NCBI GenBank assembly: GCA_964276515.1
Contig: OZ193909.1
Span: forward strand, 6,510,001-6,574,000
From: Gordius albopunctatus
Lineage: Eukaryota
Length of the DNA: 64,000 nt
Reading direction: 5' to 3'
How positions within the stretch are numbered: position 1 is the stretch's first letter; each line of letters begins with the position of its first letter. This document shows, in pieces, positions 9,487 to 48,989 of the stretch. A model generated the notes under the pieces. That model searched no databases. It had not been told where the DNA came from and saw only the letters and a list, made by a program, of their open reading frames with translations. Position numbers and translations under genes: made by a program.

Positions 9487-10713
9487 AAGACCGTTCATAC
9501 AAATTTCGATAGTGACTATCCAATTAACTCTGAAATTAGAATAAAAAAATATTTCTTTAAAATCTTCAAGAACTAACCAGCAAAGTTTTTTTTACTAAAC
9601 CACTGCAACAACATAAAGCAGCAACGATCGCGTCATATAAAATAATATTGCATTTGCTAGCTAAGAATAAAAAACCATTTACAGATGGAGAATTAGTGAA
9701 AGAAGCCATGTTAGAAGCTGCTGATTCACTTTTTGAAGAATTTAAAAATAAAATGGAAATAGTTTCAGCTATAAACACGTTGCAATTATCAGCACGAACT
9801 GTTACTAGAAGAATTAAAGTAATTGGGGAGAATTCGGAGGCAGAATTAGCAAATGATATGGAAAATTGTATTTTATTTTCGCTACAGATGGATGAATCGA
9901 CAGACGTAACAAATATATCACAATTAGTAATTTGCGTGGAGATGGTATTTTCTGATTTTACGACAAAAGAAGAATTCCTTAAAGTTCTGCCATTAAAGGG
10001 AAGCACCAGAGGAGAAGATATCTTTTCTACCTTTAAAAAGTATATAACAGAAGTAAAATTACCTGTACAAAAGTTATCGTCAATTTCAACAGACGGGGCA
10101 CCAGCGATGACTGGTAAGAAAAAAGGATTAATTGCCTTATGTAGACAGGATTCCTTATTCCCGAAATTTATTTCTTATCATTGCCTCATACATCAGGATA
10201 TGTTATGCGCAAAAACAATCGGGTTTCAACACGTATTTACGATAGTAACAAAAATTATTAATTCCATAAGATCGGGAGCTATGCAACACAGATTGTTTAA
10301 ATTACTTTTAGAAGATGAGGACGTTCAGTTAACAGATCTTCTTTTACATACTGAAGTGAGGTGGCTGAGCAGAGGTAAAATACATGAGCGGTTTATCATG
10401 CTTTTGTCACAAATACAAAGAATTTATTGCATCAAGAGGCGAATTTTACGAGCAATTAGAAAATAAGGATTGGCCAATCGACCTCGGATTTTTGACAGAT
10501 ATAACGGCAAAGTTGAATGAATTAAAATTAAAAATACAAGGGAAAAATCAGCATATCGCTGACATGATTATTTCAGTAAATGCATTCAAATGCAAGTTAG
10601 TGTTGAAATCCCATCTATTGAAAAATCATTATCACATTTCCCAAATATAAAATATACTGTTGAGACTTTAAATTTGAATAATGAAAATTTTACTGCTACA
10701 TCATATTTAGAAA

Positions 10714-12045
10714 ATATATCACGAAAATAACAATTGTAAATAGAGTGTTCATAGTGAAACCGCAGACGATTATTTTCGCCCGCGGCAAAAAGCGAACGAA
10801 AATAAGAAACTTGGGCCTTCGGCCCTCGTGGGAAGGGGAAGGGGAAGGGGAGGAGGGGAAGGGAAGTAGGGAGAGAGGGGCAGGAGGGAAGGGGGAACGA
10901 CTCATCTATATTCCGTATAAATGTAGCATATTTGCTATGCAATTTATGGGCGAGATTGCTTATGGGGTGGGGGGTAGTAAATGCAAAATAATTAGTTAAT
11001 TATTAATACAAATTTTACATTGAATTTAAAAAAATTGGCCTCCCCGGGTATCGAACCCACTTTCAAGCGGTTTTAGTGCTAAACACGACGAAAAGCGTGA
11101 CAATACATTCGGTGCGTGACAAGACATCGGAAAATGGAAAGTGAGCCCATAATTTGCATAGCAATTAATAATATCAGAATTAAACATAATATTTTCGGAA
11201 ATTAATTATAATTTTTATAGGTCCTTAGAAGGTTTCATGGGCGTAGCCAGCATTTGAATAAAAGTCATATTATCAATGGTATTAACAAGGACAATATATT
11301 AATTAAAAAAAAAATTTGGCCTCTCCGGGTATCGAACCAGCAATTAAAAGGGATTCGAACCCAGATCAGTAGAAAAGAGGCATACTTTTTTGTAGGAGGG
11401 GGGGGCACAGGGCCCCATATCAGTAGAGGCATAGGCCCTTCTAGGGGAGGGCATAGGGTAATTATCAATGTTAGTCAAAAAAAATGGAAAAAAAATACTC
11501 GCTTCACACTTTGGCCAATGGTCATTTTTTCCCATTGGTCAGCAGCCAGCGGACGGCCAAAAAGTCATATTATCAATGGTATTAACAAGAACAAAATTCT
11601 AATTAAAAAAAATAAAAATCTTGCCCTCTCCGGGTATCGAACCAGCAATTCACAACGTTCGCCGGGATTCGAACCCACTTTAATAGAGGCATAATCCTTT
11701 GTAGGGGCACAGACCACAGGGACCTATATCAGTAGAGACATAGGCCCTTGTAGTGGAGGGCATAGGGTAATTATCAATGTTAACCAATTCAAAAACGAAA
11801 AAAAAAATTCGAATCACAATTTGGCCAATGGTCATTTTTTTCATTGGTCAGTAGCCAGCGGAAGGTCAAAAAGTCATATTATCCATGGTATTAAGAACAA
11901 AATATAAATTTAATTTTAAAAAAAATAAAAAAAATTTTGTCCTCTCCGGGGATTGAACTCAACCCTACAAGTCAGAAAACCAGTGTAAATACATTGGAGG
12001 GTAACGGACAACAAAAAACGAGCCCATAAATTGCATAGCAATTAA
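10714..12045 (-). mobile_element. Helentron/DINE-1-like non-autonomous element (HINE) with internal repeats
   Basis: On minus it starts TTAATTGCTATGCAATTTATGGGCTC; inverted subterminal copy near 10931-10950; 3' hairpin gggccttcggccc near 10813; inserted at an AA/TT site, and the transposase frame (SYLE..IDKLIEEFYSRFEDF) resumes across it. Confidence 0.75.
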
Positions 12046-15000
12046 TAGATAAGCTAATAGAAGAGTTTTATTCTAGATTTGAAGATTTTGCAGTATTAGA
12101 ACCCGTTCCAAGATTTTTCATAAATCAATCCAATGTTACTGAAGATGATGTCCTTGAAATAGTTTCAGTGTATTTCGAGCTTCATAATATCGAAGACCTA
12201 AAATTAGAAATAATAAACTTGCAAAGTGATATTATTTTAAAAACGCATAGTAATGATAAAACGTTTTGGAACTTAGTCGATGAAAATAAGTATCTTATTT
12301 TAAGGAAATGTGCATTAAAAATTTATTCATATTTTGCAACAACATACAATTGCGCGTCTTTGTTCTCAAATATAAAATATTTGAAATCAAAATACTGAAC
12401 AAAGCTTACTGACTCACATTTAGATAATTGTTTAAGGACCGGGGACTCTAAATATATCCCCAATTAGAAGAAATTAGCTGAAAATATGGACACCCAAGTT
12501 TCAGACTGAATTATATGTATAATTATGTATGACACCAACAAAATGAAGTTATGAAAAATCTATTTTTTAATGCCTATCTATTTATTCCTGTTGATTATCT
12601 GTAAAATATGTGCCCTCGGTGATTTTCAAATTTAGTATTGCGCCCTTAAGGACAAACAGGTTGCCGACCCGAGTTTTAGATCCTTAGAAAATTCAAAGGC
12701 TCGGTCATCTATTTAATAACAGCAATGAAATTTATCATGCAAAATTTTTTATTTATTTAATGGGCTGGGAACGGGTCGATATAGGCAGGGGGCTGGGTCT
12801 GAGGTGCATGAGAAAATATACGGACAGGCTCGGGCGGTTTTTTTAGTTTTAAGTTGGTACAGGCTGGTCTATAATGCTTAAAAAACTTTGAACGGGCTTG
12901 GGCGGGCCTTAAAGCTTTATAAACGGGTAAAGGTGGGTCGCCCTCCAAAAAATGTCCTGTTGTAGATTCAGATTTCGGCTGCTGAGGAGTATGTGAAATT
13001 AAAGACATTCCTGCCTAATTAAAATTTGTTTAAGGTGTAATGGCTGGCTTCCGTATCTAATTTGTTTGCTGGTTTTACGCCGCATATGTGATGGCAGTTG
13101 AGTAAGTTGGATTGTTGATTGGGGTGTTTCTATGGTGGATTATACCGGTACTATAAATTAAGTGCGACGGACTGAAGCATCTGATTAAAATTACAATCGT
13201 TTACCGGGTAAAAAGGTCAATGATGACAAATAAATAACTTTCCAGTTAATGGTGGTGGAGGCCAAACAAGGCCCAAATGTATATGACCAAACTTTTAATC
13301 TGTTTTAGCAAACGTCCCATGAATCTATATGACGTGTTTGTTCATCTTTCCTTGTCTTAACAAAATCGCGCATGTGGATCATGAATTGATTTGCCATGAA
13401 CGAGAGTGATGATAGCCAGTTAAAGTTTTGATGGTTTTGGCAACAGGTAGTTTAAAGCTTTTCTGGCAAAGTTTTGAAAAGGTTGCTGGGCAACTTTGAT
13501 ACTACGGAATCTTTTGTCGGAATTTCCTACATTTGTAGACGAATATAACAGGTACCCTTAACACTGCCTCAAAATTAATTTAAATACTTGAGGCATAACA
13601 AAGCCATCTTAATCCAAGCAAAAAGACAAAAATCCTCTCAATTTATGAGCCCTCGAGGAAGAAAGGATGCGCTCTGACGGCTCCTCTCTAGTCTCTTGGC
13701 AAAATGGCTTGTTCCTTAAATTGAATTTTACAGGTATCGCCCTTTTTTTGTTCCTTCTTCTTTTAACCACAATACTATCGCCATGGCAGTTGAGTGTAAA
13801 GGACTAGATATTATGCACTTTTATTTTGGCAATTAATATTTTTATACCCGTCGTTGCCTCATGCTCTGGTACCTACCGTATACATAGACTAGATAGACTG
13901 CTCATCAACGCATAAAATTTGTACCGTTTTTTCCACCATTTTGATGTCAACAGGATAAAGAATGATTATATCGATATTGGTAGTTTTTGTAAATAAGATA
14001 TTTTTAAAGAGGTAAATAAAAAAATAATTAACTGGTTAGAGCTAATTTAATGTAATAAAATTATTAGAGATGGCCCAAATTAATATAACTATTAAAGAAT
14101 AAAGTTTCAATCCTATAGATAATACCCTTGATATTGATTTCCATCCCAATGGATATTTTTACGTATAGCCATTTCATCCTTATAAATAGCTTTATAAAGG
14201 CAATAATTAGAGTTGTCATGCAATTTTAATCGGTAAATATTTATATAAAGTGGTAGATAATAATGAATTTATACCATTAATATTTGTAAAATTAATACCC
14301 GACTTTATTTTAAATCCTTGCTATGTCTTTCTAAAATTTATTTATTACTTAACATAAAAATAATATCAATAGTTAATTTGTTAGTTGTAAATTACATGTT
14401 CATATAAGAACAAATAATAAAATATTTAGGGTTGTAAATAATAATCTTAGTAAAAACAATCAATAAAAGTTTATTAAATAATTCGGCTTACAAATGCTGG
14501 AAATTTAAAAATTGTTGAAATGACGTCTACTATCAATTGACGATCTTTTGTTGAAGTTGGATAGAAATTTCTGGATTAAAATGATAAGAGCACACTCTAG
14601 AATATTTTTTAATGCAAAGTCCCTTTTAATCCTATGAATCCATGTATTGAGTAGTTGTGCATGACATTGTATGGTGTACATCGGTTGTTATGTTCAAAAT
14701 GAAGAAAAAACTGGCACACTATTTACCATAGAGACTATGAACGCATATAAGTCATGGATATTTTTAGAGAAATCGGATAAAGTTTCCCGAAATTTTAGTA
14801 TTCCACGTCCTTTTAAATCAGACAACAACCTGGAATTTTTATATGCGATTTAACTTGAAAGCATTAACCCATTCATGACGAGTTTTAGAGTATTAAGATT
14901 TAGATCGTTGTATTCAACTAACATGTCTTTTTTCTATATGTGACTTTGTTGTCGTATAAATAAAATTTTAAAGACAGACAAGCTTCAACCCCATGACACA

Positions 15001-16034
15001 AAGCTTTATTTATAAATACGGTGTCACGTTTTATGTACGGGTGTTTAAGATTTCCGGATTATATCAAATTATTGTTGCGGTGCCTTAACCTCCTTTGGGC
15101 AACTATAATTTTATCGCCCCCCCCCCATCTCTTGTAACGATGATCGTGCGTTAGTATTTTATGGATTGTTTAACCATGTGGCATACTAAAACAAGCGCAC
15201 TTTAAGTGTTATAAGAATGTAATTATTTTCGCTTACACATATTTTATTGTCCAGAAGAATCCCTTTATTCCCCAGAAATACTTAAGAGCACTTGAACTTT
15301 TATAATGCGCGCAAACAATTGTTTCCCACATTGTGCCAATATACTTGATTCCTGTTGCTGATAAAATATACATTATGATACATGAATTTTTTTCTTGAGA
15401 TGAAATTCTTAAATTCGTGTAATAAAAATAAGCGAAAATAATTGTATTACAATTGATTTTAGAATAGCGTTTAATCCAATTTTCATTTTCTAATGATTAG
15501 TGATTCTTATATTGGAATTTCTGTAATTACATAATTGAAATTAAACTTATTTTAAAATGAGACGAAATGGTTCTATTTGGCGCTCCTGCTCATCTCGATT
15601 AAAACGCAGCTCAACTAATCGTATTATAATTGGCAATTTAAAACATATATAAATGCATTTAGTACATATATAGATATATTTAATATCTATATATGTTATA
15701 TAATATATGTTATATAAAGATATATATATATATATATATATATAATGAAATAATATTAGCACATTTAGTTAATAAAAAAATGCCTATTATTATATGATTT
15801 AAATAATTTCACCCATAACTTACTTTATTATAATTAAGAAATATTTCATAGTATCTATTTCTTATAACCTCATTATATAATGTATTTAAATATCTAAGAT
15901 TGGTGTTTTAGGTGGGCTGAGTTTTAATTGAGTTGAGTAGGATTTCTATTTGGTTATAATAACCGGTCATTGTGCCAGTTGACGGCATATCATCTGTTCT
16001 ACCTGAACAGGTGTTTTGAAGGATTTTAAAAGTT

Positions 16035-16554
16035 ATGGCTCTTGAAAAAACAAACTATTATGATCTTTTAAATTGCCACAAAAATTCTACAGTATTTTTT
16101 ATTATGAATCGTTTTTATTCCTCATAGACGCAGCAAATTTTGACAGAATATAAAATCAAAGCTTTGGAACATCACCCAGATAAATCTTTAAGTGAAAGTA
16201 ATAAAAAGTTAAAATATAAAAATTTTGGTTAATAAATAGAGGGAAAATTTGAGCTCTTGACAAAGGCAAAAAATGTTTTAACAAATCCTGTAATTAAAGT
16301 GCTATATGATACATGGTTGGAATCAGATCTAGCCCTGTCATTTGAAAATTTTTTAGAGATGACAAAACATGGGGTAAATGTAACTTTTGATTGCTTATTA
16401 ATAATTACAGGCCACACATTGGACATGCAATGATCCTACAAGAATGATAGAGGGTGAGGAAGTAAATCATGCATTCAAAGACAATATATTTAGCCTTTCA
16501 AATGATCCCCATTTAGAGTACACTAAGGCACTATTTCGTAGCTATAAAATTTAA
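16035..16554 (+). CDS. DNAJC12: DnaJ homolog subfamily C member 12 / JDP-like J-domain protein, 4 exons, ~134 aa
   Basis: Exons 16035-16091, 16128-16197, 16240-16373, 16411-16554 with GT-AG introns of 36, 42 and 37 nt (an alternative in-phase donor at 16192 is possible). Translation MALEKTNYYDLLNC..QILTEYKIKALEHHPDK..KFELLTKAKNVL..YDTWLES..HW..FRSYKI* has the HPD motif and the FRxYxI C-terminus typical of DNAJC12. Confidence 0.88.
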
Positions 16555-17900
16555 TTTTTTGCATTTAATCAAATTCTTATTTAAAATGTAAAAAATACTT
16601 ATATCAATGCTAAAACTCAATAATTGCAAATATTTTTAGATCTATTTATTTAATTTATATCTATAAAATTAATATTTTAATCTTATACAAACCCACTGAT
16701 ATTATTTTATTGTATATCTGCTGATAGTCATATAGAACTGTTTTTAAATTGTTTATTTTATTTTGCTTTTTTATGCCTTTAATCTATATATATAAAATTG
16801 GCTCTCCATTATTACTATAAATTGATTTGATGAGGGAGAACCAATGATAAATTAAAAAAGTTATTTGAACAAAATTTTGGGTTAAAACTTACCCTACCCA
16901 CTCTGGTTTTTTTCTCATGAGTGAAAATCTCTAAATTTTATAACATTATGCAATGCAAAACTGATAATCTTGATAACACACAAGTTCAAAATAATCCATC
17001 ATCTTTAGTCAAGGTTTTGCTCATACAAAATTTAATTGATGCCATATAATCTTAATTTTCGCCGAGATCTTTAAATGCAGTACCTTTTTTTATTTTGTCC
17101 TTTAATTCAAAACATTTTAAATTTGTTTTTTAAGTGCCTACAAATTTTTAATGAGGAAACAGGTAGCAAGCGAAGTCATTAATAAATTGAATAAGAATTA
17201 AAGTTGTATACCAAATGCTATCTATAAGCTGAAAGAGTGTCAATATATTTATAAGTGTATTGCTATGTCTAATAAACTAACTCTCCTCGCTTTCCTATCC
17301 CCTGCCTCCTCAACTCAGGCTATTTTATCTCAATTTTTGAAATAAACATGTATAGTTCATATCTATAATAGTGTCTTATTTCTATTATTATAGAGATTTA
17401 ATTTACAGTTATGTTTTTTGAGTGAAAAAATATAAGATTAAATAAGAGGACCTTCAGGAAAATCTAATAAAAAGCACCTAAGTCGCTTCGCCTAACCTTG
17501 AGGTTTAAACCATGCATAAGCATATCATATTGCATATTTATCCACCTATTAACTTTGACCTCTAGCCTGCGTTAGCCCTCTATATCCGCCTAAAGGTTTT
17601 AGGTGGATTAGAACTTAATGCCTATGTTGATAGACTTGTTTTGAAGAACTTAAAGCAGGGTTGAGAAGGGAGAGTCCCTAGCGGGATATCCCCCTAACTC
17701 TTGTTTTATTTATTATTTTTATTATCCTCATGTAAAAATTATAAACGTCGCGTATGCATATATAGAAAAGAATCCGCGAGAAATTAACCACACCAACGAG
17801 TGTCAAGGGTTTATTAAGACGCGAGGGGGGAAACGATGTAGAGTAAAAGATAGGCCATGAATTATAGGAAAATTCTTAGACTCTTTTACGGTATGGCGTT

Positions 17901-19916
17901 TTAGCAAACCGTGTGCTGTTCTGTGTGTGTGGTTGAGTTCGAGCGGGTCCAATGAATGATTCGTCCCAGCTGGAAGTCGTCGAAGAATGGTTCACGAGAA
18001 GGTCCATCGGCCGGGTTTTTGTCGGTGGAGACCCACTCCAGGTTTTGCTTAATCTTGATCATGTTGTCGAGGCCCATGACGTCGCATATTTTGGTAAAAG
18101 CGTATTCGAGGTGTGGAGCGTGCGCACTACCTTTTTTAACGATGTAGTAAGCCGTTCGGGAGTCGGTGATGATCTTTGGGCAGCAGTGGGGGGAGTCAAT
18201 TGCCGCCTTGATGTATGCCAATGGGATGGCCACCAGCTCGAGTAGGTTGATAGTAGGAATGAGATCGTGGACACCGAAGATCGCGAGTGCATCACCCTTG
18301 GCTATTGATAGGACGGAGCCCCTGAAAAATAAGCCTATGTGTGATAACGAAGCATCTCCAGCGGTGAATCCATTGGTCTCATACCGCATATGGAATGGGG
18401 TGGAAAGGTGTTTCTGAATCAATAAAATCTTCCGGACTAGCCAGTCGACACGGAATTCAATAGGGTTGACCGACAGTAGTAAGTTGTAAGCCGGTGATAC
18501 AAACTTAGTCCATCCAGTGAGCATGTACACGTAGTGGGTGAGAATGCCCAGGCAAGTTTGTGTTACCAATGGGTGAGGAATCTTGTTTTCCACCAGGAAA
18601 TGATTGAGTATCTGTGTGGCTGCGTCGATTTTTCGTACGAATTTGTTGTTGACCCTTAGTGTCTTTTGGTCCAAGTTCACATTAATACCCAAATAGTCCA
18701 GTACCGTCCTGGGCGTAAGGGAAGACTTGCAGCGGTTAATGGTTAGGTTCCAGCATTTGCCTAGATAGAGGAACCTTCTGGTATCCGCCAGAACCATAGT
18801 AGCGGATGGGCCGTATATTAGAATGTCATCCAAGTATACGTTATACTTGGATTTAGTGATAGATTTTTTGCAAAGATCCAGCATGATCTGCTGGAGAACA
18901 TATGGCGAGAAGCTAGCCCCCATGGGCAAAACTTTATAGGCGTATTTGCGTCGTCTGTAGCGAAACCCAAAGAACTTTGAAGATTCCGGGGCGAAAGGAA
19001 TGGAGAAGAATGCCGCCTTCATGTCGATTTTTGTCATGTAACAAGCATCAGATAGAGAGGAAGCGATTAAGGGTATCGATTTGAGAGAGAATGGGTACTT
19101 TACGAAGTTTTTGGATATTTGGGAGAGGTCAGCTATAAGGCGTGGGGATCCATCACTTTTGGGTATAAAGTACATTGGGGATGGTATAGCACCTGGGTTT
19201 TCTCGGACCACATTGGAGAGGATTATTTCGTCAACGAGCGTTTTATGGGCTATGGGGATTGCCTTGACATACCTTGGTACATGGTAGCGACCTTGGTTTT
19301 GAACAATAGCCACCCGTGATAGCCGTGGTTTAAACCCAAACTTGGCAACCCTTTTCGTAAAATTGCTTTGAAGCCGATGAGGTTTGAGGATCGTCGTTCG
19401 AATGGATAGGGGATGATCAAACCTTATGATTGAGGATAACGGATGAGAGGGGAATGATGGGATGTTGGATGGTTCGCTGATGATAGGTGGGCCTTCGCTA
19501 TCCAAACCCACCTCCACCCATTGAGACGAGAGAAGTGCCGGCACTTGTGAATGTTCAGGTAGCGGCGTGTTGAAGGGGTGTGGCAACTCCTCCAACTCCG
19601 GGCCATCATCGGGAGAAATGGAATTGATAGCGATACTCCTGGCAATGGCTGAGTAATTAGTTAGCCATGTTGGAATATTTCCATTCCTCGTCGATCCCGG
19701 CGGGTTATCACCGCTGCCGAGGGTCGCCGCTACCGTCCTAACATGATTACGTTCTCTCCGCCCTAGACGGAGGCGGCCCTTTTGGCTGAGGGCCTTTCTT
19801 CCTTGTACCATGTCTCGCATCAGGCTGACGAAAAAGCTGGACGGGCTCGGTGTATTGCCCCATACCCATCTTCTCCGCCCAGTCTTTAGATTTACCAGTA
19901 ACGGCTTGCCAGCCAT
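17901..19916 (-). CDS. reverse transcriptase-RNase H (pol), left arm, 671 aa from the first ATG
   Basis: RT motifs YFIPKSDGSPRLIADLSQ, KIDMKAAFFSIP, LPMGASFSP, VYLDDILI, YLGI; RNase H motifs GDAS, INLLELVAI, ITDS, WVSTDKNPADGPSR. Its 5' part overlaps the gag-like ORF in another frame. Confidence 0.93.
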   Translation of the reverse strand: MAGKPLLVNLKTGRRRWVWGNTPSPSSFFVSLMRDMVQGRKALSQKGRLRLGRRERNHVRTVAATLGSGDNPPGSTRNGNIPTWLTNYSAIARSIAINSISPDDGPELEELPHPFNTPLPEHSQVPALLSSQWVEVGLDSEGPPIISEPSNIPSFPSHPLSSIIRFDHPLSIRTTILKPHRLQSNFTKRVAKFGFKPRLSRVAIVQNQGRYHVPRYVKAIPIAHKTLVDEIILSNVVRENPGAIPSPMYFIPKSDGSPRLIADLSQISKNFVKYPFSLKSIPLIASSLSDACYMTKIDMKAAFFSIPFAPESSKFFGFRYRRRKYAYKVLPMGASFSPYVLQQIMLDLCKKSITKSKYNVYLDDILIYGPSATMVLADTRRFLYLGKCWNLTINRCKSSLTPRTVLDYLGINVNLDQKTLRVNNKFVRKIDAATQILNHFLVENKIPHPLVTQTCLGILTHYVYMLTGWTKFVSPAYNLLLSVNPIEFRVDWLVRKILLIQKHLSTPFHMRYETNGFTAGDASLSHIGLFFRGSVLSIAKGDALAIFGVHDLIPTINLLELVAIPLAYIKAAIDSPHCCPKIITDSRTAYYIVKKGSAHAPHLEYAFTKICDVMGLDNMIKIKQNLEWVSTDKNPADGPSREPFFDDFQLGRIIHWTRSNSTTHTEQHTVC

Positions 19917-20277
19917 AATAGGATGCCATTGCTAGAGTTCTCACTCGATCAGAGAACTTGTCGATTGTTTTGTCGAAGAGTTCGATGGAGTCTCCCAGAC
20001 TCAACAAGAACTCGGCCTCGTGTTTCTGGTAGGCTGGCATTGTATAGTTAGATTCTACCGCCTCCCGCAACCCCTTGAGGCGAAGTTTGAGTGTCTCGAT
20101 ATTTGATGATGGCAGGTTGTTGCCACGCCCTCTCTCCCTTGCTAGGAGGGCGTCTAACTCCGTACGTGTCATTGTGACCGTTTCCGGAAGTTGCGAGGGG
20201 GCCCAATGCGGTGGGTTGTTATGGCTGATCGTTTCCTCACTCCTTCCCAGGAGGCTCCTCTCAATTTTGGCGTCCAT
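19747..20277 (-). CDS. gag/core-like ORF1, 176 aa from ATG (MDAKIERS...PPPSRAERT)
   Basis: Intact ORF upstream of and overlapping pol; helical-looking core; RVRTLAMASYYGWQAV recalls the R..L.A...GW motif of DIRS-group gag; basic C-terminal tail RHGTRKKGPQPK. Confidence 0.7.
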   Translation of the reverse strand: MDAKIERSLLGRSEETISHNNPPHWAPSQLPETVTMTRTELDALLARERGRGNNLPSSNIETLKLRLKGLREAVESNYTMPAYQKHEAEFLLSLGDSIELFDKTIDKFSDRVRTLAMASYYGWQAVTGKSKDWAEKMGMGQYTEPVQLFRQPDARHGTRKKGPQPKGPPPSRAERT

Positions 20278-20391
20278 CGCCGCTAGCCGATCCAAAATCA
20301 CCTTAATGGCCGATTCTGACCCTGATGCGTCACGGTTAATGGTAGCGGCGACCCTCGGCAGCGGTGATAACCCGCCGAGATCGACGAGGAA

Positions 20392-20591
20392 NNNNNNNNN
20401 NNNNNNNNNNNNNNNNNNNNNNNNNNNNNNNNNNNNNNNNNNNNNNNNNNNNNNNNNNNNNNNNNNNNNNNNNNNNNNNNNNNNNNNNNNNNNNNNNNNN
20501 NNNNNNNNNNNNNNNNNNNNNNNNNNNNNNNNNNNNNNNNNNNNNNNNNNNNNNNNNNNNNNNNNNNNNNNNNNNNNNNNNNNNNNNNNNN
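20392..20591. other. assembly gap (200 N) with duplicated contig ends
   Basis: 20592-21127 directly repeats ~19856-20391, as expected from unmerged overlapping contig ends. Confidence 0.85.
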
Positions 20592-21074
20592 TGCCCCATA
20601 CCCATCTTCTCCGCCCAGTCTTTAGATTTACCAGTAACGGCTTGCCAGCCATAATAGGATGCCATTGCTAGAGTTCTCACTCGATCAGAGAACTTGTCGA
20701 TTGTTTTGTCGAAGAGTTCGATGGAGTCTCCCAGACTCAACAAGAACTCGGCCTCGTGTTTCTGGTAGGCTGGCATTGTATAGTTAGATTCTACCGCCTC
20801 CCGCAACCCCTTGAGGCGAAGTTTGAGTGTCTCGATATTTGATGATGGCAGGTTGTTGCCACGCCCTCTCTCCCTTGCTAGGAGGGCGTCTAACTCCGTA
20901 CGTGTCATTGTGACCGTTTCCGGAAGTTGCGAGGGGGCCCAATGCGGTGGGTTGTTATGGCTGATCGTTTCCTCACTCCTTCCCAGGAGGCTCCTCTCAA
21001 TTTTGGCGTCCATCGCCGCTAGCCGATCCAAAATCACCTTAATGGCCGATTCTGACCCTGATGCGTCACGGTTA

Positions 21075-22910
21075 ATGGTAGCGGCGACCCTCGGCAGCGG
21101 TGATAACCCGCCGAGATCGACGAGGAATGGAAATATTCCAACATGGCTAACTAATTACTCAGCCATTGCCAGGAGTATCGCTATCAATTCCATTTCTCCC
21201 GATGATGGCCCGGAGTTGGAGGAGTTGCCACACCCCATCAACACGCCGCTACCTGAACATTCACAAGTGCCGGCACTTCTCTCGTCTCAATGGGTGGAGG
21301 TGGGTTTGGATAGCGAAGGCCCACCTATCATCAGCGAACCATCCAACATCCCATCATTCCCCTCTCATCCGTTATCCTCAATCATAAGGTTTGATCATCC
21401 CCTATCCATTCGAACGACGATCCTCAAACCTCATCGGCTTCAAAGCAATTTTACGAAAAGGGTTGCCAAGTTTGGGTTTAAACCACGGCTATCACGGGTG
21501 GCTATTGTTCAAAACCAAGGTCGCTACCATGTACCAAGGTATGTCAAGGCAATCCCCATAGCCCATAAAACGCTCGTTGACGAAATAATCCTCTCCAATG
21601 TGATCCGAGAAAACCCAGGTGCTATACCATCCCCAATGTACTTTATACCCAAAAGTGATGGATCCCCACGCCTTATAGCTGACCTCTCCCAAATATCCAA
21701 AAACTTCGTAAAGTACCCATTCTCTCTCAAATCGATACCCTTAATCGCTTCCTCTCTATCTGATGCTTGTTACATGACAAAAATCGACATGAAGGCGGCA
21801 TTCTTCTCCATTCCTTTCGCCCCGGAATCTTCAAAGTTCTTTGGGTTTCGCTACAGACGACGCAAATACGCCTATAAAGTTTTGCCCATGGGGGCTAGCT
21901 TCTCGCCATATGTTCTCCAGCAGATCATGCTGGATCTTTGCAAAAAATCTATCACTAAATCCAAGTATAACGTATACTTGGATGACATTCTAATATACGG
22001 CCCATCCGCTACTATGGTTCTGGCGGATACCAGAAGGTTCCTCTATCTAGCCAAATGCTGGAACCTAACCATTAACCGCTGCAAGTCTTCCCTTACGCCC
22101 AGGACGGTACTGGACTATTTGGGTATTAATGTGAACTTGGACCAAAAGACACTAAGGGTCAACAACAAATTCGTACGAAAAATCGACGCAGCCACACAGA
22201 TACTCAATCATTTCCTGGTGGAAAACAAGATTCCTCACCCATTGGTAACACAAACTTGCCTGGGCATTCTCACCCACTACGTGTACATGCTCACTGGATG
22301 GACTAAGTTTGTATCACCGGCTTACAACTTACTACTGTCGGTCAACCCTATTGAATTCCGTGTCGACTGGCTAGTCCGGAAGATTTTATTGATTCAGAAA
22401 CACCTTTCCACCCCATTCCATATGCGGTATGAGACCAATGGATTCACCGCTGGAGATGCTTCGTTATCACACATAGGCTTATTTTTCAGGGGCTCCGTCC
22501 TATCAATAGCCAAGGGTGATGCACTCGCGATCTTCGGTGTCCACGATCTCATTCCTACTATCAACCTACTCGAGCTGGTGGCCATCCCATTGGCATACAT
22601 CAAGGCGGCAATTGACTCCCCCCACTGCTGCCCAAAGATCATCACCGACTCCCGAACGGCTTACTACATCGTTAAAAAAGGTAGTGCGCACGCTCCACAC
22701 CTCGAATACGCTTTTACCAAAATATGCGACGTCATGGGCCTCGACAACATGATCAAGATTAAGCAAAACCTGGAGTGGGTCTCCACCGACAAAAACCCGG
22801 CCGATGGACCTTCTCGTGAACCATTCTTCGACGACTTCCAGCTGGGACGAATCATTCATTGGACCCGCTCGAACTCAACCACACACACAGAACAGCACAC
22901 GGTTTGCTAA
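21075..22910 (+). CDS. reverse transcriptase-RNase H (pol), right arm; 611 aa from the ATG at the arm boundary (frame open from at least 20811)
   Basis: Same protein as the left arm apart from four visible amino-acid changes (left/right: G/R, F/I, V/I, G/A); no stops. Confidence 0.9.
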   Translation: MVAATLGSGDNPPRSTRNGNIPTWLTNYSAIARSIAINSISPDDGPELEELPHPINTPLPEHSQVPALLSSQWVEVGLDSEGPPIISEPSNIPSFPSHPLSSIIRFDHPLSIRTTILKPHRLQSNFTKRVAKFGFKPRLSRVAIVQNQGRYHVPRYVKAIPIAHKTLVDEIILSNVIRENPGAIPSPMYFIPKSDGSPRLIADLSQISKNFVKYPFSLKSIPLIASSLSDACYMTKIDMKAAFFSIPFAPESSKFFGFRYRRRKYAYKVLPMGASFSPYVLQQIMLDLCKKSITKSKYNVYLDDILIYGPSATMVLADTRRFLYLAKCWNLTINRCKSSLTPRTVLDYLGINVNLDQKTLRVNNKFVRKIDAATQILNHFLVENKIPHPLVTQTCLGILTHYVYMLTGWTKFVSPAYNLLLSVNPIEFRVDWLVRKILLIQKHLSTPFHMRYETNGFTAGDASLSHIGLFFRGSVLSIAKGDALAIFGVHDLIPTINLLELVAIPLAYIKAAIDSPHCCPKIITDSRTAYYIVKKGSAHAPHLEYAFTKICDVMGLDNMIKIKQNLEWVSTDKNPADGPSREPFFDDFQLGRIIHWTRSNSTTHTEQHTVC

Positions 22911-23145
22911 AACGCCATACCGTAAAAGAGTCTAAGAATTTTCCTATAATTCATGGCCTATCTTTTACTCTACATCGTTTCCCCCCTCGCGTCTTAATAA
23001 ACCCTTGACACTCGTTGGTGTGGTTAATTTCTCGCGGATTCTTTTCTATATATGCATACGCGACGTTTATAATTTTTACATGAGGATAATAAAAATAATA
23101 AATAAAACAAGAGTTAGGGGGATATCCCGCTAGGGACTCTCCCTT

Positions 23146-26100
23146 GGCAATACAATAACATTTAAAGAGATATACAAGATAGCTGAAGCCATGGAGTTGG
23201 CCAAGAAAGAAGTCATAACTTACAAAATTGATGCTATAAATCCAAGGTATAATCCAAAAACTAAACAACAACATTATGTGAAACAACAACATCACAATTG
23301 TTCTAGGTGTGGCAAACATCATGAACCAAAGAAATGACCTGCGTTTTACAATGTTTTATCTGTCAGAAAAGGGTCATTTTTCAAAATTCTGTCACACAAG
23401 AAATGTAAATATGGTGAACACAGTTAAAAATTTAAAGCCTTATATTAAGGTAAATATAAATAAAATAACTTGCAACATGTTATTTGATACAGGGGCTGCA
23501 GTGTCTATAATTCACCAGGCAATTTACAATTTGATTCTGACACCTAGCCTGGAACAATGCCCAAAGTTAAAATCTTTTTGAGATCACCCCATACCAGTAT
23601 TAGGTAAAACTACTGTATATGTACAACTGGGGGTGAAGGTGTTAAAATTACCAGTATTTGTGACAACTGCTAATGAAGGTCCAATATTTGGTCTTGATTG
23701 GATTAAAGCCTTCCAACTTGATCTTCCAGAAGTGGTAAAAATAAATAAAATTCAAGATGACTTTGTTACTAAATTACTTAAACAATATGAGGCTGTATTC
23801 AGTGATGGCCCAGGTAAAACAAAAAATTATAAAGTCAAAATTTTTCTAAATGAAGGGGCCCAACCTATTGCATTACAAACCAGAAGGGTACCATTTCCTT
23901 TAAGACAGAAAGTAGAAATGGAATTAAAAAGATTGCTAAATGAAGACATTATTAAACGTGTTGACCCTTCTATGAATGAAATAAAATGGATTACACCCAC
24001 AGTTAATGTAATAAAGAGTAAAGGAGCCATACGCATTTGCGGTGATTTTAGGGTAACATTGAACGCATACTTGAATACAAACAACCATATGTTATCACCG
24101 TTTGACGACCTTATCACAAAAATAGCTGGTGGGGAAAGGTATACAATAATTGATCTGCGTGATGCCTATTTGCAAATGGTGGTAGACGAAGATTGCAGAC
24201 ATATGCTTACAATCGCTACGCACATATTTTCAATATAAAAGACTACCTTTTGGATTAGCGACTGCTCCCAACTTATTTCAAAGATATATGGAAGAGTTGT
24301 TAAATGGAATTCCGCACACTGGGGTACTGTTAGATGATATTATAGTCACTGGGTTAAATCAAGATGACCATTTGAAAAATCTAAACGAGGTCCTAACAAG
24401 AATACAAAATGCTGGGCTGAAAGCAAAAAAGGAAAAAGTCAAATTTTTCCAAAACTCAGTTACCTATCTAGGACATAAAATTGATTCGACAGGTATCCAC
24501 CCTACGGAAGAACGCATTGAGGCAATTAAAAATTTCAAGATACCAGAAAATAAAAAGGAGCTACGCTCATTTTTAGGTCTTGTGAATTATCAGGAACGTT
24601 TTATTCCGCGATTACATGAAAAATGTGCTCCACTACATACCTTAACTGGTTCTACCATAATGTGGAGATAAACAATTCAGGAACAGAAAATTTTTTGATG
24701 AAGTTAAGTTGATGCTTTCATCTTCTGACACCTTAGTACCGTATAGTACAACGTTACCGGTTAATCTTGCAGTTGATGCGTCCGAGACATCTGTAGGCGC
24801 CGTGATATCTCATGTTTTTCCCGACAAACCTGAAAGACCCATAGCTAATCCTTCTAGAACGTTGAGCCAATCAGAAAAACAATAATCGACGATTGACCGT
24901 GAAGCTAGAGCCATAATTTTTGGAATTGAAAAATTTAATCAGTATCTCAGAGGACGAAACCACAAACCGTTAGAAAGAATTTTCGGTTGTAAAAGGGATC
25001 TACCCAAAATGGTTAATAACAGGCTGGTACGTTGGGCTTTACTATTAAATTCATATCAATATGAAATTAAATATCGTATGGGTAAAGACAACAAATCTGC
25101 AGATGCTATGTCTAGATTTACTACTGACGTAGATGGTGACGATGCCAAAATAAACAATGTCGGGTTATTAATGATAGAGGACTTAACACTGAATAGAGAA
25201 ATGATTAAAAATGCAATAAAGACAGATCGTAGTTGTCTAGAATTAATTCGTGCTATTGAGCGCAATTGGCGCATAGACATGTCCAAATTTCAGTTAGACG
25301 TAAAAGGATATTTAAATAAACGTGAAGAGATTTCGTACGAGAGTGGACTATTAATTTTAGGAAATAGGTTAATCATTCCAAAATCTTTACAGAATTTGGT
25401 TCTTAGGATTTTACATCAAGGACATCCAGGAATTACGGGGATGCGAAATGTTTGTCGCTATTATGTTTATTGGCCGAGAATGGATGAAGACATTGACAGA
25501 CATGTAAAATCATGCGAAGGATGCCAAGAAGTGCGACCTTCAGAAAAACAGGTACCGCTCTATCCTTGGAATTTACCTGATCGTGTGTGGGACCGTTTGC
25601 ACATTGATATAGCGGGTCGAATAGAAGGAAAATGGTGGTTGGTACTAATAGACTCATTCTCGAAATGGGTTGAGTTAGCAATGGTAACTTCGACAACAAC
25701 ATCGGTCGTAATCAATCTTCTACGGAATTGGTTCTGTAGATTTGGAATCCCGACGCAGATTGTGTCAGACAATGGGCCACAATTTTCTGGACAATAATTT
25801 TCCAAATTCTGTGTTTCAAGTAATATTACTCACATAAAATCGACTCCATTTCATCCTAAAACCAATGGGCAGGCCTAAAGGATGATAAGGACGTTAAAAA
25901 TAAGATATTATGCGGCGAGAAAACAGACTTGGAACAAAGAATTTTGTCTCCAACAGGTCTTGATAAGTTACAGAAACTCTCCTCAAGCGACGACGGGAAA
26001 AACCCCATCCAAATTACTTTTAGGAAGGAGATTACAAACCGCACTGGATTTAATAAAGCCGAATTTAAGAAACGTAATAAGGGAGAAGATATGGAAACAG

Positions 26101-26290
26101 AAAACATATCATTATCAGAATGTACGTTATAGGGAATTTGAGGTTGGAGACCCAGTATGGATTCGCAACGAAATTAAGCCGGGATGTTACAAAGGTATTA
26201 TTGGAGAACGGAAGGGCCACTATTCCTATAATGTCCGGACAGATGGTGGAATCAAAATAAAACATGCTGATCAAATGAAGCTTAGGCTGC
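23146..26290 (+). pseudogene. decayed Ty3/Gypsy gag-pol, truncated at both ends
   Basis: gag tail ITFKEIYKIAEAMELA and CCHC knuckles (~23155-23395); protease LFDTGAAVSII; RT IRICGDFR, IDLRDAYLQ, LLDDIIV; RNase H VDAS; integrase H..HPG..C..C, RLHIDIAG, IVSDNGPQF. Many stops and frameshifts; no LTR identified. Confidence 0.93.
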
Positions 26291-27421
26291 GATCACAGTT
26301 TTTTTGTCTTTTTAGCACCACATGCATCAATGTGCTAAGTTTTTCCATACTCATTAGATTAGAAACGTATTAAAAATAGCTTGGCAGAACATCAATTGAT
26401 TGAATTGGGATTATTTGTGAGTCATTGGAAATGCTGCCACCTCAGGTGAACTTTGAGATAGACAATCGTAAGGCAAAAGAAAAATCAAACGGCTTTTTAT
26501 TTCTACATTCAGTACGCGGAATTATTACCTTTAATATTGATAGCATTTGTCTACATTTTTCTGCCAAAAACTATCACGGTCTGGTAACTTAATTGCCTCC
26601 CAGGGTCCGCACATACGATTCTAAGAGTCCGTTCGGCCATGCTAAAATCAATAGAGATGTCTAAACTGCAGGGCCGAAAATGACGAATTTAAATTTTAAG
26701 AATTAATTAATTGCTATATTTTCGAAAATTTTTGATTCAATTCTCTGATAAAAAATAGTAAACTATATATAAAATATGATTAAGCCCGCACTGCCCAACT
26801 TCGTTATAATACCCACCTGGGCGGGCCTACTTGAAAATCTTAATTTATTACGGTTGCCTGCTCCGCCCCAGCCGAAGGGCCCGACTTATTGGTTGTTCGC
26901 TATTTTTACTCAGAATTAATAATATTTAAAGAAAATTCGACATCTTTCTCCCACCCCCTCCTTGAAAAAATCCCTACTACGCGCCTGCCTTAAAGATATG
27001 TGAACCAGGGGTCAGATTTGTTAGATTTTTTCTGCCCTAATACGACCCGGCCCGATTTTATAATTTATCTGCCCGTCCGAACCCTTTATATGTGTCCGCC
27101 TGGCCATGCCTGAGTTATAAAAGCTGCCCGGCCTGAAATGGTGTTTTTTAAAATTTTTAGCACTAATACTGTTATATTTTTTAAAAAACTTCATCTTAAT
27201 TTTTGATTGAGCCCATTAATTGCTATGCAATTTATGGGTTCACTTTCCATTTGTTTTCTGTACCAACACGTCATGTCCTCTCACTTTTTTATGTTTTTTT
27301 ATCCCGTTGTTTGCTTTTGCCCCTCTTCGCTGAGTTGGAGCAAGTGTGTTGCCTCGTTGACGACTGAAAAATTCTGTTTCCTGTTCGTTTTGTTGATCCA
27401 TTTTGTTTTTTTATTTAATAA

Positions 27422-28374: not shown

Positions 28375-30075
28375 TTAATTGCTATGCAATTTATGGGCTC
28401 ACTTTCCATTTTCCGATGTCACATGACGCACCGAATGTCTTGTCACGCTTTTCGTCGTGTTTACCACTGATACCGATTGGAAGTCGGTTCGAATCCCAGA
28501 GAGGCCAATTTTTTTTAAATTAATATATTGTTCTTGTTACTACCATTTATAATATGACTTTTTGGCCGTCCGCTAGCTGCTGACCAATGAAAAAATTACC
28601 ATTGGCAAAATTGTGAAACAAAATTTTTTTTCGTTTTTTTTAAATTGGAAAAAAATGACCATTGGCCAAAGTGTGAATCGAAATTTTTTTTTGGCTAACA
28701 TCGATAATTACCCTGTTCCACCCCCCTACAAGAGCCTATGCCTCTACTGATATGGGTCCCTGTGCCTCCCCCCTCACCGATGTCACGTCACGCACCGAAT
28801 GTCTTGTCACGCTTTTCGTCGTGTTTGCCACTGATACCGATTGGAAGTGGGTTCGAGTCCCAAAGAGGCCAAATTTTTATTTTATTTTTTTGGATTAATA
28901 TATTGCTCTTGTTACTACCATTGATAATATGACTTTTTGGCCGTCCGCTGGCTGCTGACCATTGGCCAAAGTGTGAATCGAAATTTTTTTTGTTTTATTT
29001 TGGCTAACATTGATAATTACCCTATGCCCTCCCTAGAAGGGCCTATGCCTCTACTGATATGGATCCCTGTGCCCCCCCCACAAAGGCTTATGCCTCTCCT
29101 GATGTGGCGTTCGAATCCCGGAGAGGCCAAATTTTTTTTTTAATTAATATATTGTTCTTGTTAATAACATTAATAATATTAAACGTCTGCTGGCTACTGA
29201 CTATTGAGAAAAATTACCATTGGCCAAAGTGCGAATGGAATTTTTTTTTATTTGGCCCTTATGTATTTATAATTATAGGCTATTTAGCCGTCTGCTGGCC
29301 GATGGAAAAAAATAACCACTGGTCTAAGTGTGAATTAAAATATTTTCCTTTCTATATTTTGTCCTTATATAAATAAAGGCTATTTAGCCGTCTGCTGACC
29401 AATAAAAAAATTACCACTGGCCAAAGTGTAAATCGAAATTATTTATATTTTTTTATATTTGATTCTTATGTATTTATACGCTTTTTGCCCGTTGACTGCT
29501 GACCAATGTGCGGTCAATACATGCTGCAACGACTATCATTCACATATAAGCTATTTATAGCTTAGACCCTACATTTTTTTAAACCAACGCGAACCCGACC
29601 CGAAAGCATTTTTATATTTTCGGCCCAATAGCAAATCATTCTCAAAGTGTTCTTGTTAATAACATTAATAATTGGCTGTCTACTCGTTACAGAGTAATAA
29701 AAAATTCCTATTGGCCAAAGTGTAACTAGAATAAAAATTTCTCTATAAACGGATCGCCCAGGGTGGGGTTAGGGGCGAAGTAGCTAACAATTGATTTAGT
29801 TTAGCAACTGTCCCTGCATTCCGGACTGCACTCAAGTCGGCATGAATATACCTCACGTTCAATCCTAAGCTTTTTCCAACATTAAAGTCTCCACGATGCT
29901 CCTCACGATTTGATCATATAAATTGCATAGCAAATGTGCTTTGTTTATACGTAGTATAAAAGTGCAATAACCGTAGTGTATGATAACTTAAACCAGAGAT
30001 ATGTGAGGCAGGCACTGTGTTTAGCTAAGCGGGGGTGCCCCCAGCTAGGCCCGAAGGGCCTAGTATATTCATATA
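28375..30075 (+). mobile_element. complete Helentron/DINE-1-like non-autonomous element
   Basis: 5' TTAATTGCTATGCAATTTATGGGCTC; internal ~120-bp-based tandem repeats; inverted subTIR ataaattgcatagcaa near 29918; terminal hairpin ctaggcccgaagggcctag (30045-30063). Confidence 0.8.
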
Positions 30076-38799: not shown

Positions 38800-39593
38800 T
38801 CCGAAAGTAAAAAAAATACTCGGGCCTTCGGCCCTCGTGGGAAGGGGGAAGGGGAGGAGGGGAGGGAAGGGGGAACTCATCTACACTCCGTATAAATGTA
38901 TCATATTTGCTATGCAATTTATGGGCGAGAAAGGTGGGAAGGGGTGAGAATGCCTATAGGCGGGGGGGGGGGGTATTAAATGTAAAATAATTAGTTAATT
39001 ATTAATACAAATTTTCGATTTAATTAAAAAAAATTGCCTTCTCCGGCATTCGAACTCACATTCGTAGAGCCAGCCTTATGGTTATTTTATTCCATTGGTC
39101 AGCAGCCAGCGGACGGCCAAAAAGTCATAATAGCAATGGTAGGAACAGGAACAATCATAATAGTCAAAAAAACGAAAAAATAAACTCGGATACACATTTT
39201 GGCCAATGGTCATTTTTTTCATTGGTCAGCAGCCAGCGGACGGCCAAAAAGTCTTATTATCAATGATAGTAACAAGAACAATCATAAGAGTCAAAAAAAC
39301 TCTGGGATTCTAACCCAAAAACTAGATGAATTGCATAGCAATTATTAAAAAGTATAGGGTAATTATCAATGTTAACCTATTCAAAAACGAACAAAAAATT
39401 TCGATTTATTTTGCCAATGGTAATTTTTTTCAATGGTCAGTAGCCTGCGGACGGTCAAAAAGTCATATTATCAATGGTGTTAAAACAATATATTAATTTA
39501 ATTTAAAAAAAGCTGGCGCCAATAACTTGGTGGATGGACGACGGACGGACGACGGACAACCAAAAACGAGCCCATAAATTGCATAGCAATTAA
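38800..39593 (-). mobile_element. Helentron/DINE-1-like element
   Basis: gggccttcggccc hairpin, ttgctatgcaatttatgggc subTIR, (gacg)n microsatellite, terminal gagcccataaattgcatagcaattaa. Confidence 0.8.
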
Positions 39594-45374: not shown

Positions 45375-46078
45375 GTCCGCATACACACACGCTTAACGCT
45401 TATTATGCCTCTCCAGATCTGGGGTTCGAATCCCGGAGAGGCCAAAAATTTTTTAATTGTTTTTTTATTTTTTAAATTAATATATTGTTATTGTTACCAC
45501 CATTGATAATATGACTTTTTGGCCTTCCGCTGGCTCCTGACCAATGGAAAAAATGACCATTGGCCAAAGTGTGAAGCGAAATTTTTTGTTTCTATTTTTT
45601 TTGACTAGCATTGATAATTACCTTATGCCCTCTCCTAGAAGGGCCTATGCCTCTACTGATATGGGTCCCTGTGCCCCCCCCCCTTACAAAGGTTTATGCC
45701 TCTCCAGATCTGGGGTTCAAAACCCGGGAGAGGCCAAAAAATTTTTAATTGTTTTTTTATTTTTTAAATTAAATTAATATATTGTTATTGTTACTACCAT
45801 CGATAATATGACTTTTTGGCCGTCCGCTCCCTGTGCCCCCCCCCCCTACAAAGTTTCATGTCTCTCCAGATCTGGGGTTCGAATCCCAGAGAGGCCAAAA
45901 AATTAAAAAAAACTTTTATTTTTTAAATTAAATTAATATATTGTTATTGTTACTACCATTGATAATATGACCTTTTAGCCGTCCGCTGGCTACTGACCAA
46001 TGGAAAAAAATGACCATTGACCAAAGTGTGCATCAAAAATTTTTTTTCGTTTTTTTTGACTCTTATGATTGTTCCTAG

Positions 46079-48951: not shown

Positions 48952-48989
<38 letters not shown>

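What the first reader, a model, noticed from the sequence alone, without database searches (positions are those of the whole stretch)
17666..23145. Giant palindromic retroelement: two intact RT-RNase H arms diverging from a gag-containing loop, with no integration enzyme
Seen: 2069-bp arms (17666-19734 and 21077-23145) in inverted orientation, both with uninterrupted pol frames, enclose a 606-bp loop (19735-20340) holding ORF1. Both arms stop at exactly the same nucleotide, which suggests a defined terminus. No integrase, tyrosine recombinase, protease, LTRs or TSD are visible. Known: LTR elements need integrase and DIRS/Ngaro elements carry a YR with short terminal repeats, not repeats that contain the whole pol. 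Inference: this may be a retroelement or endogenised reverse-transcribing virus that replicates through a fold-back intermediate, with the RT itself forming the terminal inverted repeat. Intact frames and near-identical arms point to a recent origin.
Basis: partly seen in the sequence, partly recalled or inferred. Interest (0 to 1): 0.9.

Follow-up and report, generated by a model that had tools for sequence, protein, structure and literature searches.

The report
Mirror-image copy of integrase-less retroelement
Two nearly identical, intact reverse-transcriptase genes face away from each other in this genome, likely because the DNA copy of a small multi-copy jumping element with no integration enzyme folded back and copied itself, which would be a rare snapshot of how a poorly understood, probably hepatitis-B-related group of elements replicates.

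Summary
The arms are real: 2069 nt each, 4 mismatches, open RT-RNase H frames, no integrase, recombinase, protease or target-site duplication. Contig depths in one public run (flank about 600-700, arms about 1200-1300, loop about 600-760) support two arms and one loop. The element belongs to a diverged multi-copy family that shares the outer end. Most visible relatives do not show the mirror junction, so the palindrome looks like a derivative, not the family norm. The pol's only close relatives are in the hairworm Gordionus. It groups, with moderate support only, with methyltransferase-less RT-RNase H proteins carrying hepadnavirus-type RNase H (HEART-like); DIRS affinity is not rejected (p=0.08). 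The inner arm edge falls exactly on a built-in 10-bp inverted repeat. Best reading (0.45): a snap-back cDNA of a roughly 2.7-kb unit, inserted by host repair. The head-to-head layout is known from Penelope elements; I found no description of it for this RT class.

The parts
17666..19734 (-). left arm (pol from its N-terminal linker to the 3' end of the unit)
   Evidence: exact-match arm contigs at about twice flank depth in run X1
17901..19931 (-). pol, left copy: disordered linker, RT (YLDD), RNase H with the four acidic positions; in-frame ATGs at 19916, 19820, 19811 overlap ORF1
   Evidence: conserved D238, D303, D304, D461, E500, D525, D577 in alignment A2 numbering of the right copy
17661..17900 (-). 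3' untranslated region with AATAAA motifs and a predicted terminal hairpin; probable family 3' end at 17661-17662
   Evidence: (loose ends)
19558..19567 (+). one arm of a perfect 10-bp internal inverted repeat
19725..19734 (-). other arm of the 10-bp inverted repeat; its end is the inner edge of the long arms
19735..20340 (-). loop, 606 nt, single copy by depth
19747..20340 (-). ORF1 (197 codons open from the junction; first ATG 20277), predicted helical, gag-like by position only
   Evidence: no homologue
20341..20391 (+). first 51 nt of the right arm at the end of the left contig: the mirror junction is present in both contigs
20392..20591 (.). 200-N scaffold gap, really a contig overlap
   Evidence: loop depth 1x
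20592..21076 (-). redundant second assembly of part of the loop (start of the right contig)
   Evidence: 100% identical to 19856-20340
21077..23145 (+). right arm
21075..22910 (+). pol, right copy, 611 aa; its ATG is formed across the mirror junction
23146..26373 (+). decayed Ty3/gypsy element (gag end, protease, RT, RNase H, integrase), cut inside gag by the right arm; its 5' part was not found on the left

Best explanation
This is a palindrome of two nearly identical, intact pol copies around one ORF1-bearing loop, most likely made when the first-strand cDNA of a roughly 2.7-kb ORF1-pol retroelement with no integration enzyme folded back and was copied to its own start, then likely inserted by host break repair. 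Shown: arms, frames, missing enzymes, one loop by depth, a multi-copy family sharing the outer end. Inferred steps: (1) RT copies the RNA from its 3' end (about 17661) to near its 5' end (about 20340); (2) the cDNA end primes on, or is joined to a second strand starting at, position 19734, the end of a built-in 10-bp inverted repeat; (3) copying back to the cDNA start gives a hairpin with a 606-nt loop and identical arms that both end at the family 3' end; (4) the opened hairpin is patched into a chromosome break with loss of target DNA, hence no target duplication and a gypsy neighbour missing its 5' part. It would be an occasional product of the family, not its standard form. The family is probably HEART-like (hepadnavirus-related RT-RNase H without terminal protein, methyltransferase or recombinase).
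For: Depth 1:2:1 for flank:arm:loop among exact-match contigs of X1 (596-696; 1174 and 1315; 757 and 606). Both runs carry the right-arm letter at 19208 and 19697, so the arms may be identical. No flank DNA is duplicated, and both outer ends lie within about 5 nt of where other copies end (4 contigs in each run with unlike flanks, agreement 0.61 and 0.58). Family depth falls from 10-15k at 20994-21032 to 982 at 21046-21071 (X1), as if the family's 5' boundary lay near the loop end. The inner edge equals the end of one of only two separated inverted repeats of 10 bp or more in the 2680-nt unit (about 0.3% for a random break, post hoc). No TSD; gypsy 5' part absent on the left. Self-priming is the published reading of head-to-head Penelope junctions (PMC3846280, passages). 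Tree and profile placement.
Against: In X2 the arms are not at twice the flank depth (92.6, 73.3, 49.5 against 59.1) and no exact loop contig is listed. Both runs are one study and one may be the source sample. The family 5' boundary is inferred from summed depth, which the tool says is no copy number; 40 of 52 loose ends and 229 of 241 were not shown. A diverged contig in each run seems to run 7 letters into the arm (from_end values), so the junction may recur. X2 joints 17894-17665, 17903-17661 and 19929-17789 hint at direct or tandem 3' repeats in other copies. Tree support stays under the 95 mark (93/85, 93/92, 91/81), the AU test does not reject grouping with methyltransferase-bearing DIRS (p 0.081), the pol itself does not hit PF00336, and fold searches do not single out hepadnaviruses.
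Confidence: 0.45

Rival explanations
1. Host rearrangement: two young copies sat in opposite orientation near each other (one inside the gypsy element) and a deletion, or a fold-back repair event finished on a second copy, fused them head to head; gene conversion may keep the arms alike. The locus could then act like Mu killer, as a hairpin-RNA source against the family.
For: Explains directly why the flanks do not match, why there is no TSD and why the gypsy 5' part is gone. Fold-back inversions primed at short inverted repeats and finished on repeats are known (PMC10622511, abstract). Mu killer precedent (PMC3440606, abstract start in listing).
Against: Needs two identical copies side by side, although arm depth of 2x in X1 leaves no room for further identical copies and other copies are diverged. 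Does not explain a break at the apparent family 5' boundary.
Confidence: 0.27
2. Arm-loop-arm is the normal integrated form of this family or a sub-family: it replicates as a clothespin (hairpin) DNA by programmed self-priming at the internal inverted repeat.
For: Junction sits on a built-in repeat in the region of highest family depth. A diverged contig (982 in X1, 285 in X2 by subtraction) appears to continue into the arm letters. The junction supplies an in-frame ATG for the right pol. Such loci break assemblies, so they would be under-reported (noted for Penelope).
Against: 13 and 11 contigs reach the arm start from the ORF1-pol side against 1 and 2 across the loop side; X2 record 16 aligns only to 21079 and then has 116 unaligned letters. 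The one opposite-strand joint (19877-20341) is best read as a mapping tie.
Confidence: 0.18
3. Artefact: a single pol duplicated by assembly, scaffolding or amplification chimera.
For: The centre lies on a scaffold gap; X2 does not show 2x arms; library types are not on record.
Against: Both contigs carry the same mirror junction; the outer ends join two different flanks; X1 depth is 1:2:1. Contigs that stop just inside the second arm and depth falling towards the centre in X2 are what a real hairpin that resists sequencing would give (inference; related bias in 10.64898/2026.07.13.738322, abstract only).
Confidence: 0.08
4. On identity only (compatible with any origin of the palindrome): the family is a tyrosine-recombinase retrotransposon (VIPER/TATE- or DIRS-like) whose recombinase lies upstream of ORF1 or in a partner element and is missing from this copy.
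For: Most of the 150 best profile hits are DIRS-like (81 of 141 full-length rows carry my methyltransferase motif label); AU p 0.081; top Atlas clusters are from Euglenozoa, where VIPER/TATE occur (PMC6681497 passages); possible direct 3' repeats in X2.
Against: No recombinase in any frame scanned; no methyltransferase after RNase H; no room downstream; ORF1 overlaps pol directly, whereas VIPER lists gag-like, YR and RT/RH ORFs; profile score 255 bits for the HEART-like set against 171-187 for five DIRS sets.
Confidence: 0.25

Closest known systems
HEART (hepadnavirus-like retroelements, Gong and Han 2018; paper not held; known here only from passages of PMC12440569, PMC12691608, PMC11551314)
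   Same: RT-RNase H in an invertebrate-type genome; groups with proteins that carry hepadnavirus-type RNase H and no terminal protein; no integration enzyme seen. PMC12440569 calls HEART's mobilisation mechanism unresolved.
   Different: No named HEART sequence was in my tree, so membership is untested; I could not see what termini or ORFs the original paper describes; no palindromic form in the passages read.
Unnamed Gordionus RT-RNase H elements (XP_065317776.1, XP_065315196.1, XP_065315139.1 and fragments)
   Same: 37-42% identity over RT-RNase H, one clade at 100/100, no methyltransferase tail.
   Different: Their DNA context could not be fetched; layout unknown.
Penelope-like elements with head-to-head inverted pLTRs (Adineta vaga, PMC3846280, passages)
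   Same: Head-to-head inverted junction read as self-priming; hard to assemble.
   Different: Different RT class; their inverted parts are about 200-bp pLTRs, they have a GIY-YIG endonuclease and often a TSD; here the whole pol is duplicated and there is an RNase H.
DIRS, PAT, Ngaro, VIPER/TATE tyrosine-recombinase retrotransposons (PMC6681497, passages)
   Same: ORF1 overlapping an RT-RNase H ORF, no protease or DDE integrase; VIPER RNase H groups with hepadnaviruses.
   Different: No recombinase, no methyltransferase, no short ITR/ICR or split direct repeats in this copy.
pFOXC clothespin retroplasmids of Fusarium (PMC3035579, passages)
   Same: Reverse-transcribed linear DNA with a hairpin at one end: what the inferred intermediate would work like.
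   Different: Mitochondrial plasmids with an unrelated RT class, protein priming and telomere-like repeats; not integrated.
Hepadnaviruses, nackednaviruses, proto-nackednaviruses (PMC12691608, first third of text)
   Same: Similar unit size and RNase H neighbourhood; Atlas hit to protein P at 0.93, rank 19 of 30.
   Different: No terminal protein (N-terminal 110 residues predicted disordered), no core homologue, no DR1/DR2 or epsilon shown.

Membership tests
DIRS-like YR retrotransposons | tyrosine recombinase ORF | tested here: not met
   No Pfam recombinase hit in pol, ORF1, alternative frames or flanking ORFs of 75 aa or more; longest alternative frame in the arm 102 aa. Upstream of 20340 in other copies unseen.
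DIRS-like YR retrotransposons | short ITRs with ICR, or split direct repeats | tested here: not met
   Terminal 245 nt has no internal match longer than 10 nt exact in 17000-20391. Other copies may differ (X2 joints).
DIRS-like YR retrotransposons | methyltransferase after RNase H (some members only) | tested here: not met
   No Dam hit; pol ends about 30 residues after the RNase H motif.
DIRS-like YR retrotransposons | RT-RH phylogeny | tested here: inconclusive
   Best tree places it outside methyltransferase-bearing rows; AU p 0.081.
VIPER/TATE | gag-like, YR and RT/RH ORFs with split direct repeats | tested here: not met
   Only ORF1 and pol; no named VIPER sequence was compared.
HEART | RT clusters with named HEART1/HEART2 next to Blubervirales | not testable with these tools
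   No named HEART or hepadnavirus sequence could be fetched as a row; proxy clade of unnamed proteins only.
HEART | hepadnavirus-type RNase H | tested here: inconclusive
   Query and 5 Gordionus proteins do not hit PF00336 at E 10; 3 of 15 clade neighbours pass its cut-off and 7 more hit weakly, but weak hits also occur outside the clade.
Blubervirales (hepadna-, nackedna-, proto-nackednaviruses) | terminal protein domain in P | tested here: not met
   No PF00242 hit; residues 1-111 mostly pLDDT under 50.
Blubervirales | core (capsid) protein | tested here: inconclusive
   ORF1 model is low confidence (pLDDT 51.5) with no match at E 0.001 in BFVD.
LTR retrotransposons / Ortervirales (incl. Troyka, Kuafuorterviruses) | LTRs, protease, DDE integrase, TSD | tested here: not met
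   gypsy profile scores 106 bits against 255.
Penelope-like elements | PLE-type RT, no RNase H, pLTRs | tested here: not met
   RNase H present; nearest solved RTs are Ty3, foamy virus and caulimovirus.

The most novel reading that the evidence does not exclude
A lineage of hepadnavirus-related retroelements, so far seen here and in hairworms, has neither integrase, recombinase nor terminal protein and replicates through a programmed snap-back at a built-in inverted repeat, giving clothespin DNA that integrates as whole-pol palindromes. This would supply the missing mobilisation mechanism for HEART-like elements and a candidate pre-terminal-protein state of hepadnavirus replication.
Probability: 0.18. 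Interest if true: 0.88.

Novelty: new variant of a known kind. Interest (0 to 1): 0.6.

Why it matters
How HEART-like elements, the proposed ancestors of hepadnaviruses, move without integrase is called unresolved in print (PMC12440569). An intact, young, multi-copy family with a defined 3' end and a captured fold-back product makes the question testable: where second-strand synthesis starts, whether hairpin DNA exists, how copies enter the chromosome. If the palindrome is a one-off, it is still an undescribed RT lineage and a possible hairpin-RNA silencer of its own family. It also shows that such loci hide at assembly gaps.

Tried and rejected
No whole genome is held, so copies could not be collected. 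No related loci in viral contigs or metagenome contigs. No RNA holder listed, which says nothing on expression. ORF1: no homologue among 556 candidates, no Atlas hit, no fold match, none among fetched proteins; a PAT-like gag motif recalled from memory matched none of them. No Rfam match in 16500-20391. The bacterial promoter scan is not meaningful for this genome. The NPADxPSR motif is not diagnostic, gypsy proteins have it too. Gordionus CAK9296137.1/CAK9296138.1 are identical over the shared part, so isoforms rather than adjacent copies. The 19877-20341 opposite-strand joint was considered as a second palindrome and set aside, because depth at 20311-20317 shows no contig of its depth; it stays ambiguous. 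'Skips' with unknown letters between may be diverged stretches, so I do not count them as deletions. RNA structure at the pol start is weak: z -2.47 in the chosen window, at best -1.86 in unselected windows, and 84 of 200 simulated units have such a repeat. Kuafuorterviruses/Troyka have LTRs and were rejected. Pol fold searches confirm RT-RNase H but do not classify it (HBV P rank 6 in BFVD). Earlier-findings look-ups by sequence, place and words gave nothing. Paper search returned mostly unrelated papers.
Full report
OBSERVATION. The two arms are at the stated coordinates, 2069 nt each with 4 mismatches (18760, 19208, 19574, 19697). Both carry an open pol frame with an RT domain and an RNase H whose acidic residues are conserved across an 80-row alignment; the model is confident from about residue 112 on and disordered before it. 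The element is GC-rich (arm 0.47, loop 0.53) in a 0.34 window. The left contig holds left arm, loop and 51 nt of the right arm; the right contig holds 485 nt of loop and the right arm. Both show the same mirror junction. No direct repeat of 4 nt or more flanks the ends. The right end abuts a decayed Ty3/gypsy element inside its gag; its 5' part is not on the left.

IS IT REAL? Two public runs, of one study and of unrecorded kind, hold the stretch; one may be the source sample. In X1, long contigs that match with 0-1 differences have depth 596, 696, 625 on the left flank, 1174 and 1315 on the arm, and 757 and 606 on the loop. That is two arms and one loop, so the gap is a contig overlap and the element is 4744 nt. 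In X2 the flank is 59 and arm contigs are 92.6, 73.3 and 49.5 towards the centre, with no exact loop contig among those listed (16 of 1032 pieces shown, 16 of 179). This fails to show 2x, but would fit loss of hairpin-forming molecules (inference). Both runs show the right-arm letter at 19208 and 19697, so some left-arm differences are probably assembly errors. I put artefact at 0.08.

THE FAMILY. 644 and 362 contigs were laid on 16000-20391, most under 95% alike; up to 23 contigs differ at one site near the ORF1-pol border and 16 at a site in RNase H. The left flank is single copy. Four contigs in each run leave the alignment at 17661-17662 with unlike flanks, so the family shares this end, about 240 nt after the pol stop; there is no room for a downstream recombinase. 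At the other side, 13 and 11 contigs reach the arm start from sequence resembling the ordinary ORF1-pol side, only 1 and 2 lie across 21046-21071, and one of these (X2 record 16) aligns to 21079 and then has 116 unaligned letters. The other seems, from its distance-to-end values, to run 7 letters into the arm, so a sub-family may share the junction or a natural copy of the motif. Summed depth drops from 10-15k to 982 over the last 45 nt of the loop, which may mark the family's 5' boundary; most loose ends were not shown, so this is inference. Three X2-only joints (17894-17665, 17903-17661, 19929-17789) hint at direct or tandem 3' repeats elsewhere.

WHAT KIND OF RT. Of 7990 candidates scored, the only close relatives are two Gordionus (hairworm) proteins at 39% and 37%. 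A profile over 1.84 billion representatives adds further Gordionus proteins at the top. Of 238 fetched proteins with an RT, 141 also had an RNase H end; in a FastTree of these the query and Gordionus rows fell in a 21-row clade without my methyltransferase motif (0.95). I call the unnamed members HEART-like: the label is mine and was set after seeing that tree. Three of 15 pass the Pfam cut-off for hepadnaviral RNase H, none of those scanned hits terminal protein, and those I read have acidic or proline-rich N-termini like the query's. A 40-row mixture-model tree (38 of the 141 rows plus 2 added) keeps the placement at 93/85, 93/92 and 91/81, none starred; a quick 58-row tree gave 97. Profiles score the query 255 bits (HEART-like), 171-187 (five draws of 15 methyltransferase rows) and 106 (gypsy). 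The Atlas lists Euglenozoa clusters first and hepadnaviral P at 0.93. Against: the query does not hit PF00336, the AU test does not reject a clade with DIRS rows (p 0.081), and fold searches are not specific. ORF1 has no detectable relative. The host group was not determined.

MECHANISM. The + strand from 17666 to 20340 is what a first-strand cDNA would read. Joining its end to a copy that starts at 19734 and runs back to the start gives exactly arm-loop-arm, with identical arms, both outer ends at the family 3' end and no flank duplicated. Position 19734 is the last base of a perfect 10-bp inverted repeat with 19558-19567 that closes a predicted folded domain at the start of pol, in the region of highest family depth. 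The repeat itself is not rare (84 of 200 simulated units have one) and the fold is weak; the coincidence with the break is about 0.3%, post hoc. Insertion by break repair with target loss is inferred from the missing TSD and the cut gypsy. The main rival, fusion of two neighbouring inverted copies by deletion, explains the flanks better but needs two identical copies side by side. The programmed, family-wide reading is not excluded but is not what most visible relatives show.

KNOWN COMPARISONS. It works like the head-to-head self-primed junctions of Penelope elements (PMC3846280, passages; found through two unchecked earlier findings) and the clothespin pFOXC retroplasmids (PMC3035579, passages), but belongs to neither. 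It fails the defining tests for DIRS, VIPER, LTR elements and Blubervirales in this copy. HEART is the likeliest home; its mobilisation is called unresolved (PMC12440569, passages), and the original paper was not held, so its description of termini is unseen and may already cover part of this. Other papers seen: PMC12691608 and PMC11673190 (first third of text, plus passages of the former), PMC6681497, PMC11551314, PMC6282271, PMC12241316, 10.1101/829473, 10.1101/2023.06.26.546503 (passages), PMC10622511 and 10.64898/2026.07.13.738322 (abstracts), PMC3440606 (listing). No supplements were read; those of PMC12691608 may hold HEART data. Searches, judged from listings, showed no whole-pol palindrome in an RT-RNase H element.

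VERDICT. A real, young palindrome (about 0.9) in an undescribed integrase-less RT-RNase H family, most likely a snap-back product (0.45), less likely a host fusion (0.27) or the family's normal form (0.18). New variant of a known kind; interest 0.6.

Noticed in passing
window 62140-62449: A small arm-loop-arm insert: 91-nt arms (62156-62246, 62356-62446, 1 mismatch), 109-nt loop, GC 0.43 in 0.30-0.33 flanks, with a possible 7-nt AT-rich target duplication. Same geometry as the main finding in miniature; origin not identified.
   Followed up: partly
window 23146-26373: Decayed Ty3/gypsy element with stops and frameshifts, cut inside gag by the right arm.
   Followed up: partly
window 9561-10463, 12039-12395, 44417-44881, 46863-48407: hAT-type transposase remnants; 46863-48407 is a 515-aa open frame with BED finger, RNase H fold and dimerisation region.
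   Followed up: no
window 11000-11960, 28375-29460, 39030-39510, 41300-43300, 45375-46060, 48370-48960: A dispersed AT-rich repeat family with 100-310-nt sub-repeats in both orientations.
   Followed up: no
window 19381-19821: Highest family depth lies on the ORF1-pol border and pol linker, not on the RT core: either short non-autonomous derivatives or a conserved cis element.
   Followed up: partly
window 16000-17684, run X2: The flank contig has about half the depth (59) of many other family contigs (92-190), so the locus may be on one haplotype only in that sample.
   Followed up: no
proteins P0107, P0108, P0113, P0117, P0119, P0124, P0133, P0135, P0147, P0160, P0235, P0236: Unnamed RT-RNase H proteins without methyltransferase or terminal protein on 2.0-3.6-kb contigs from Logan, ENA and JGI, several with hepadnavirus-type RNase H: a wider, little-described group.
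   Followed up: partly
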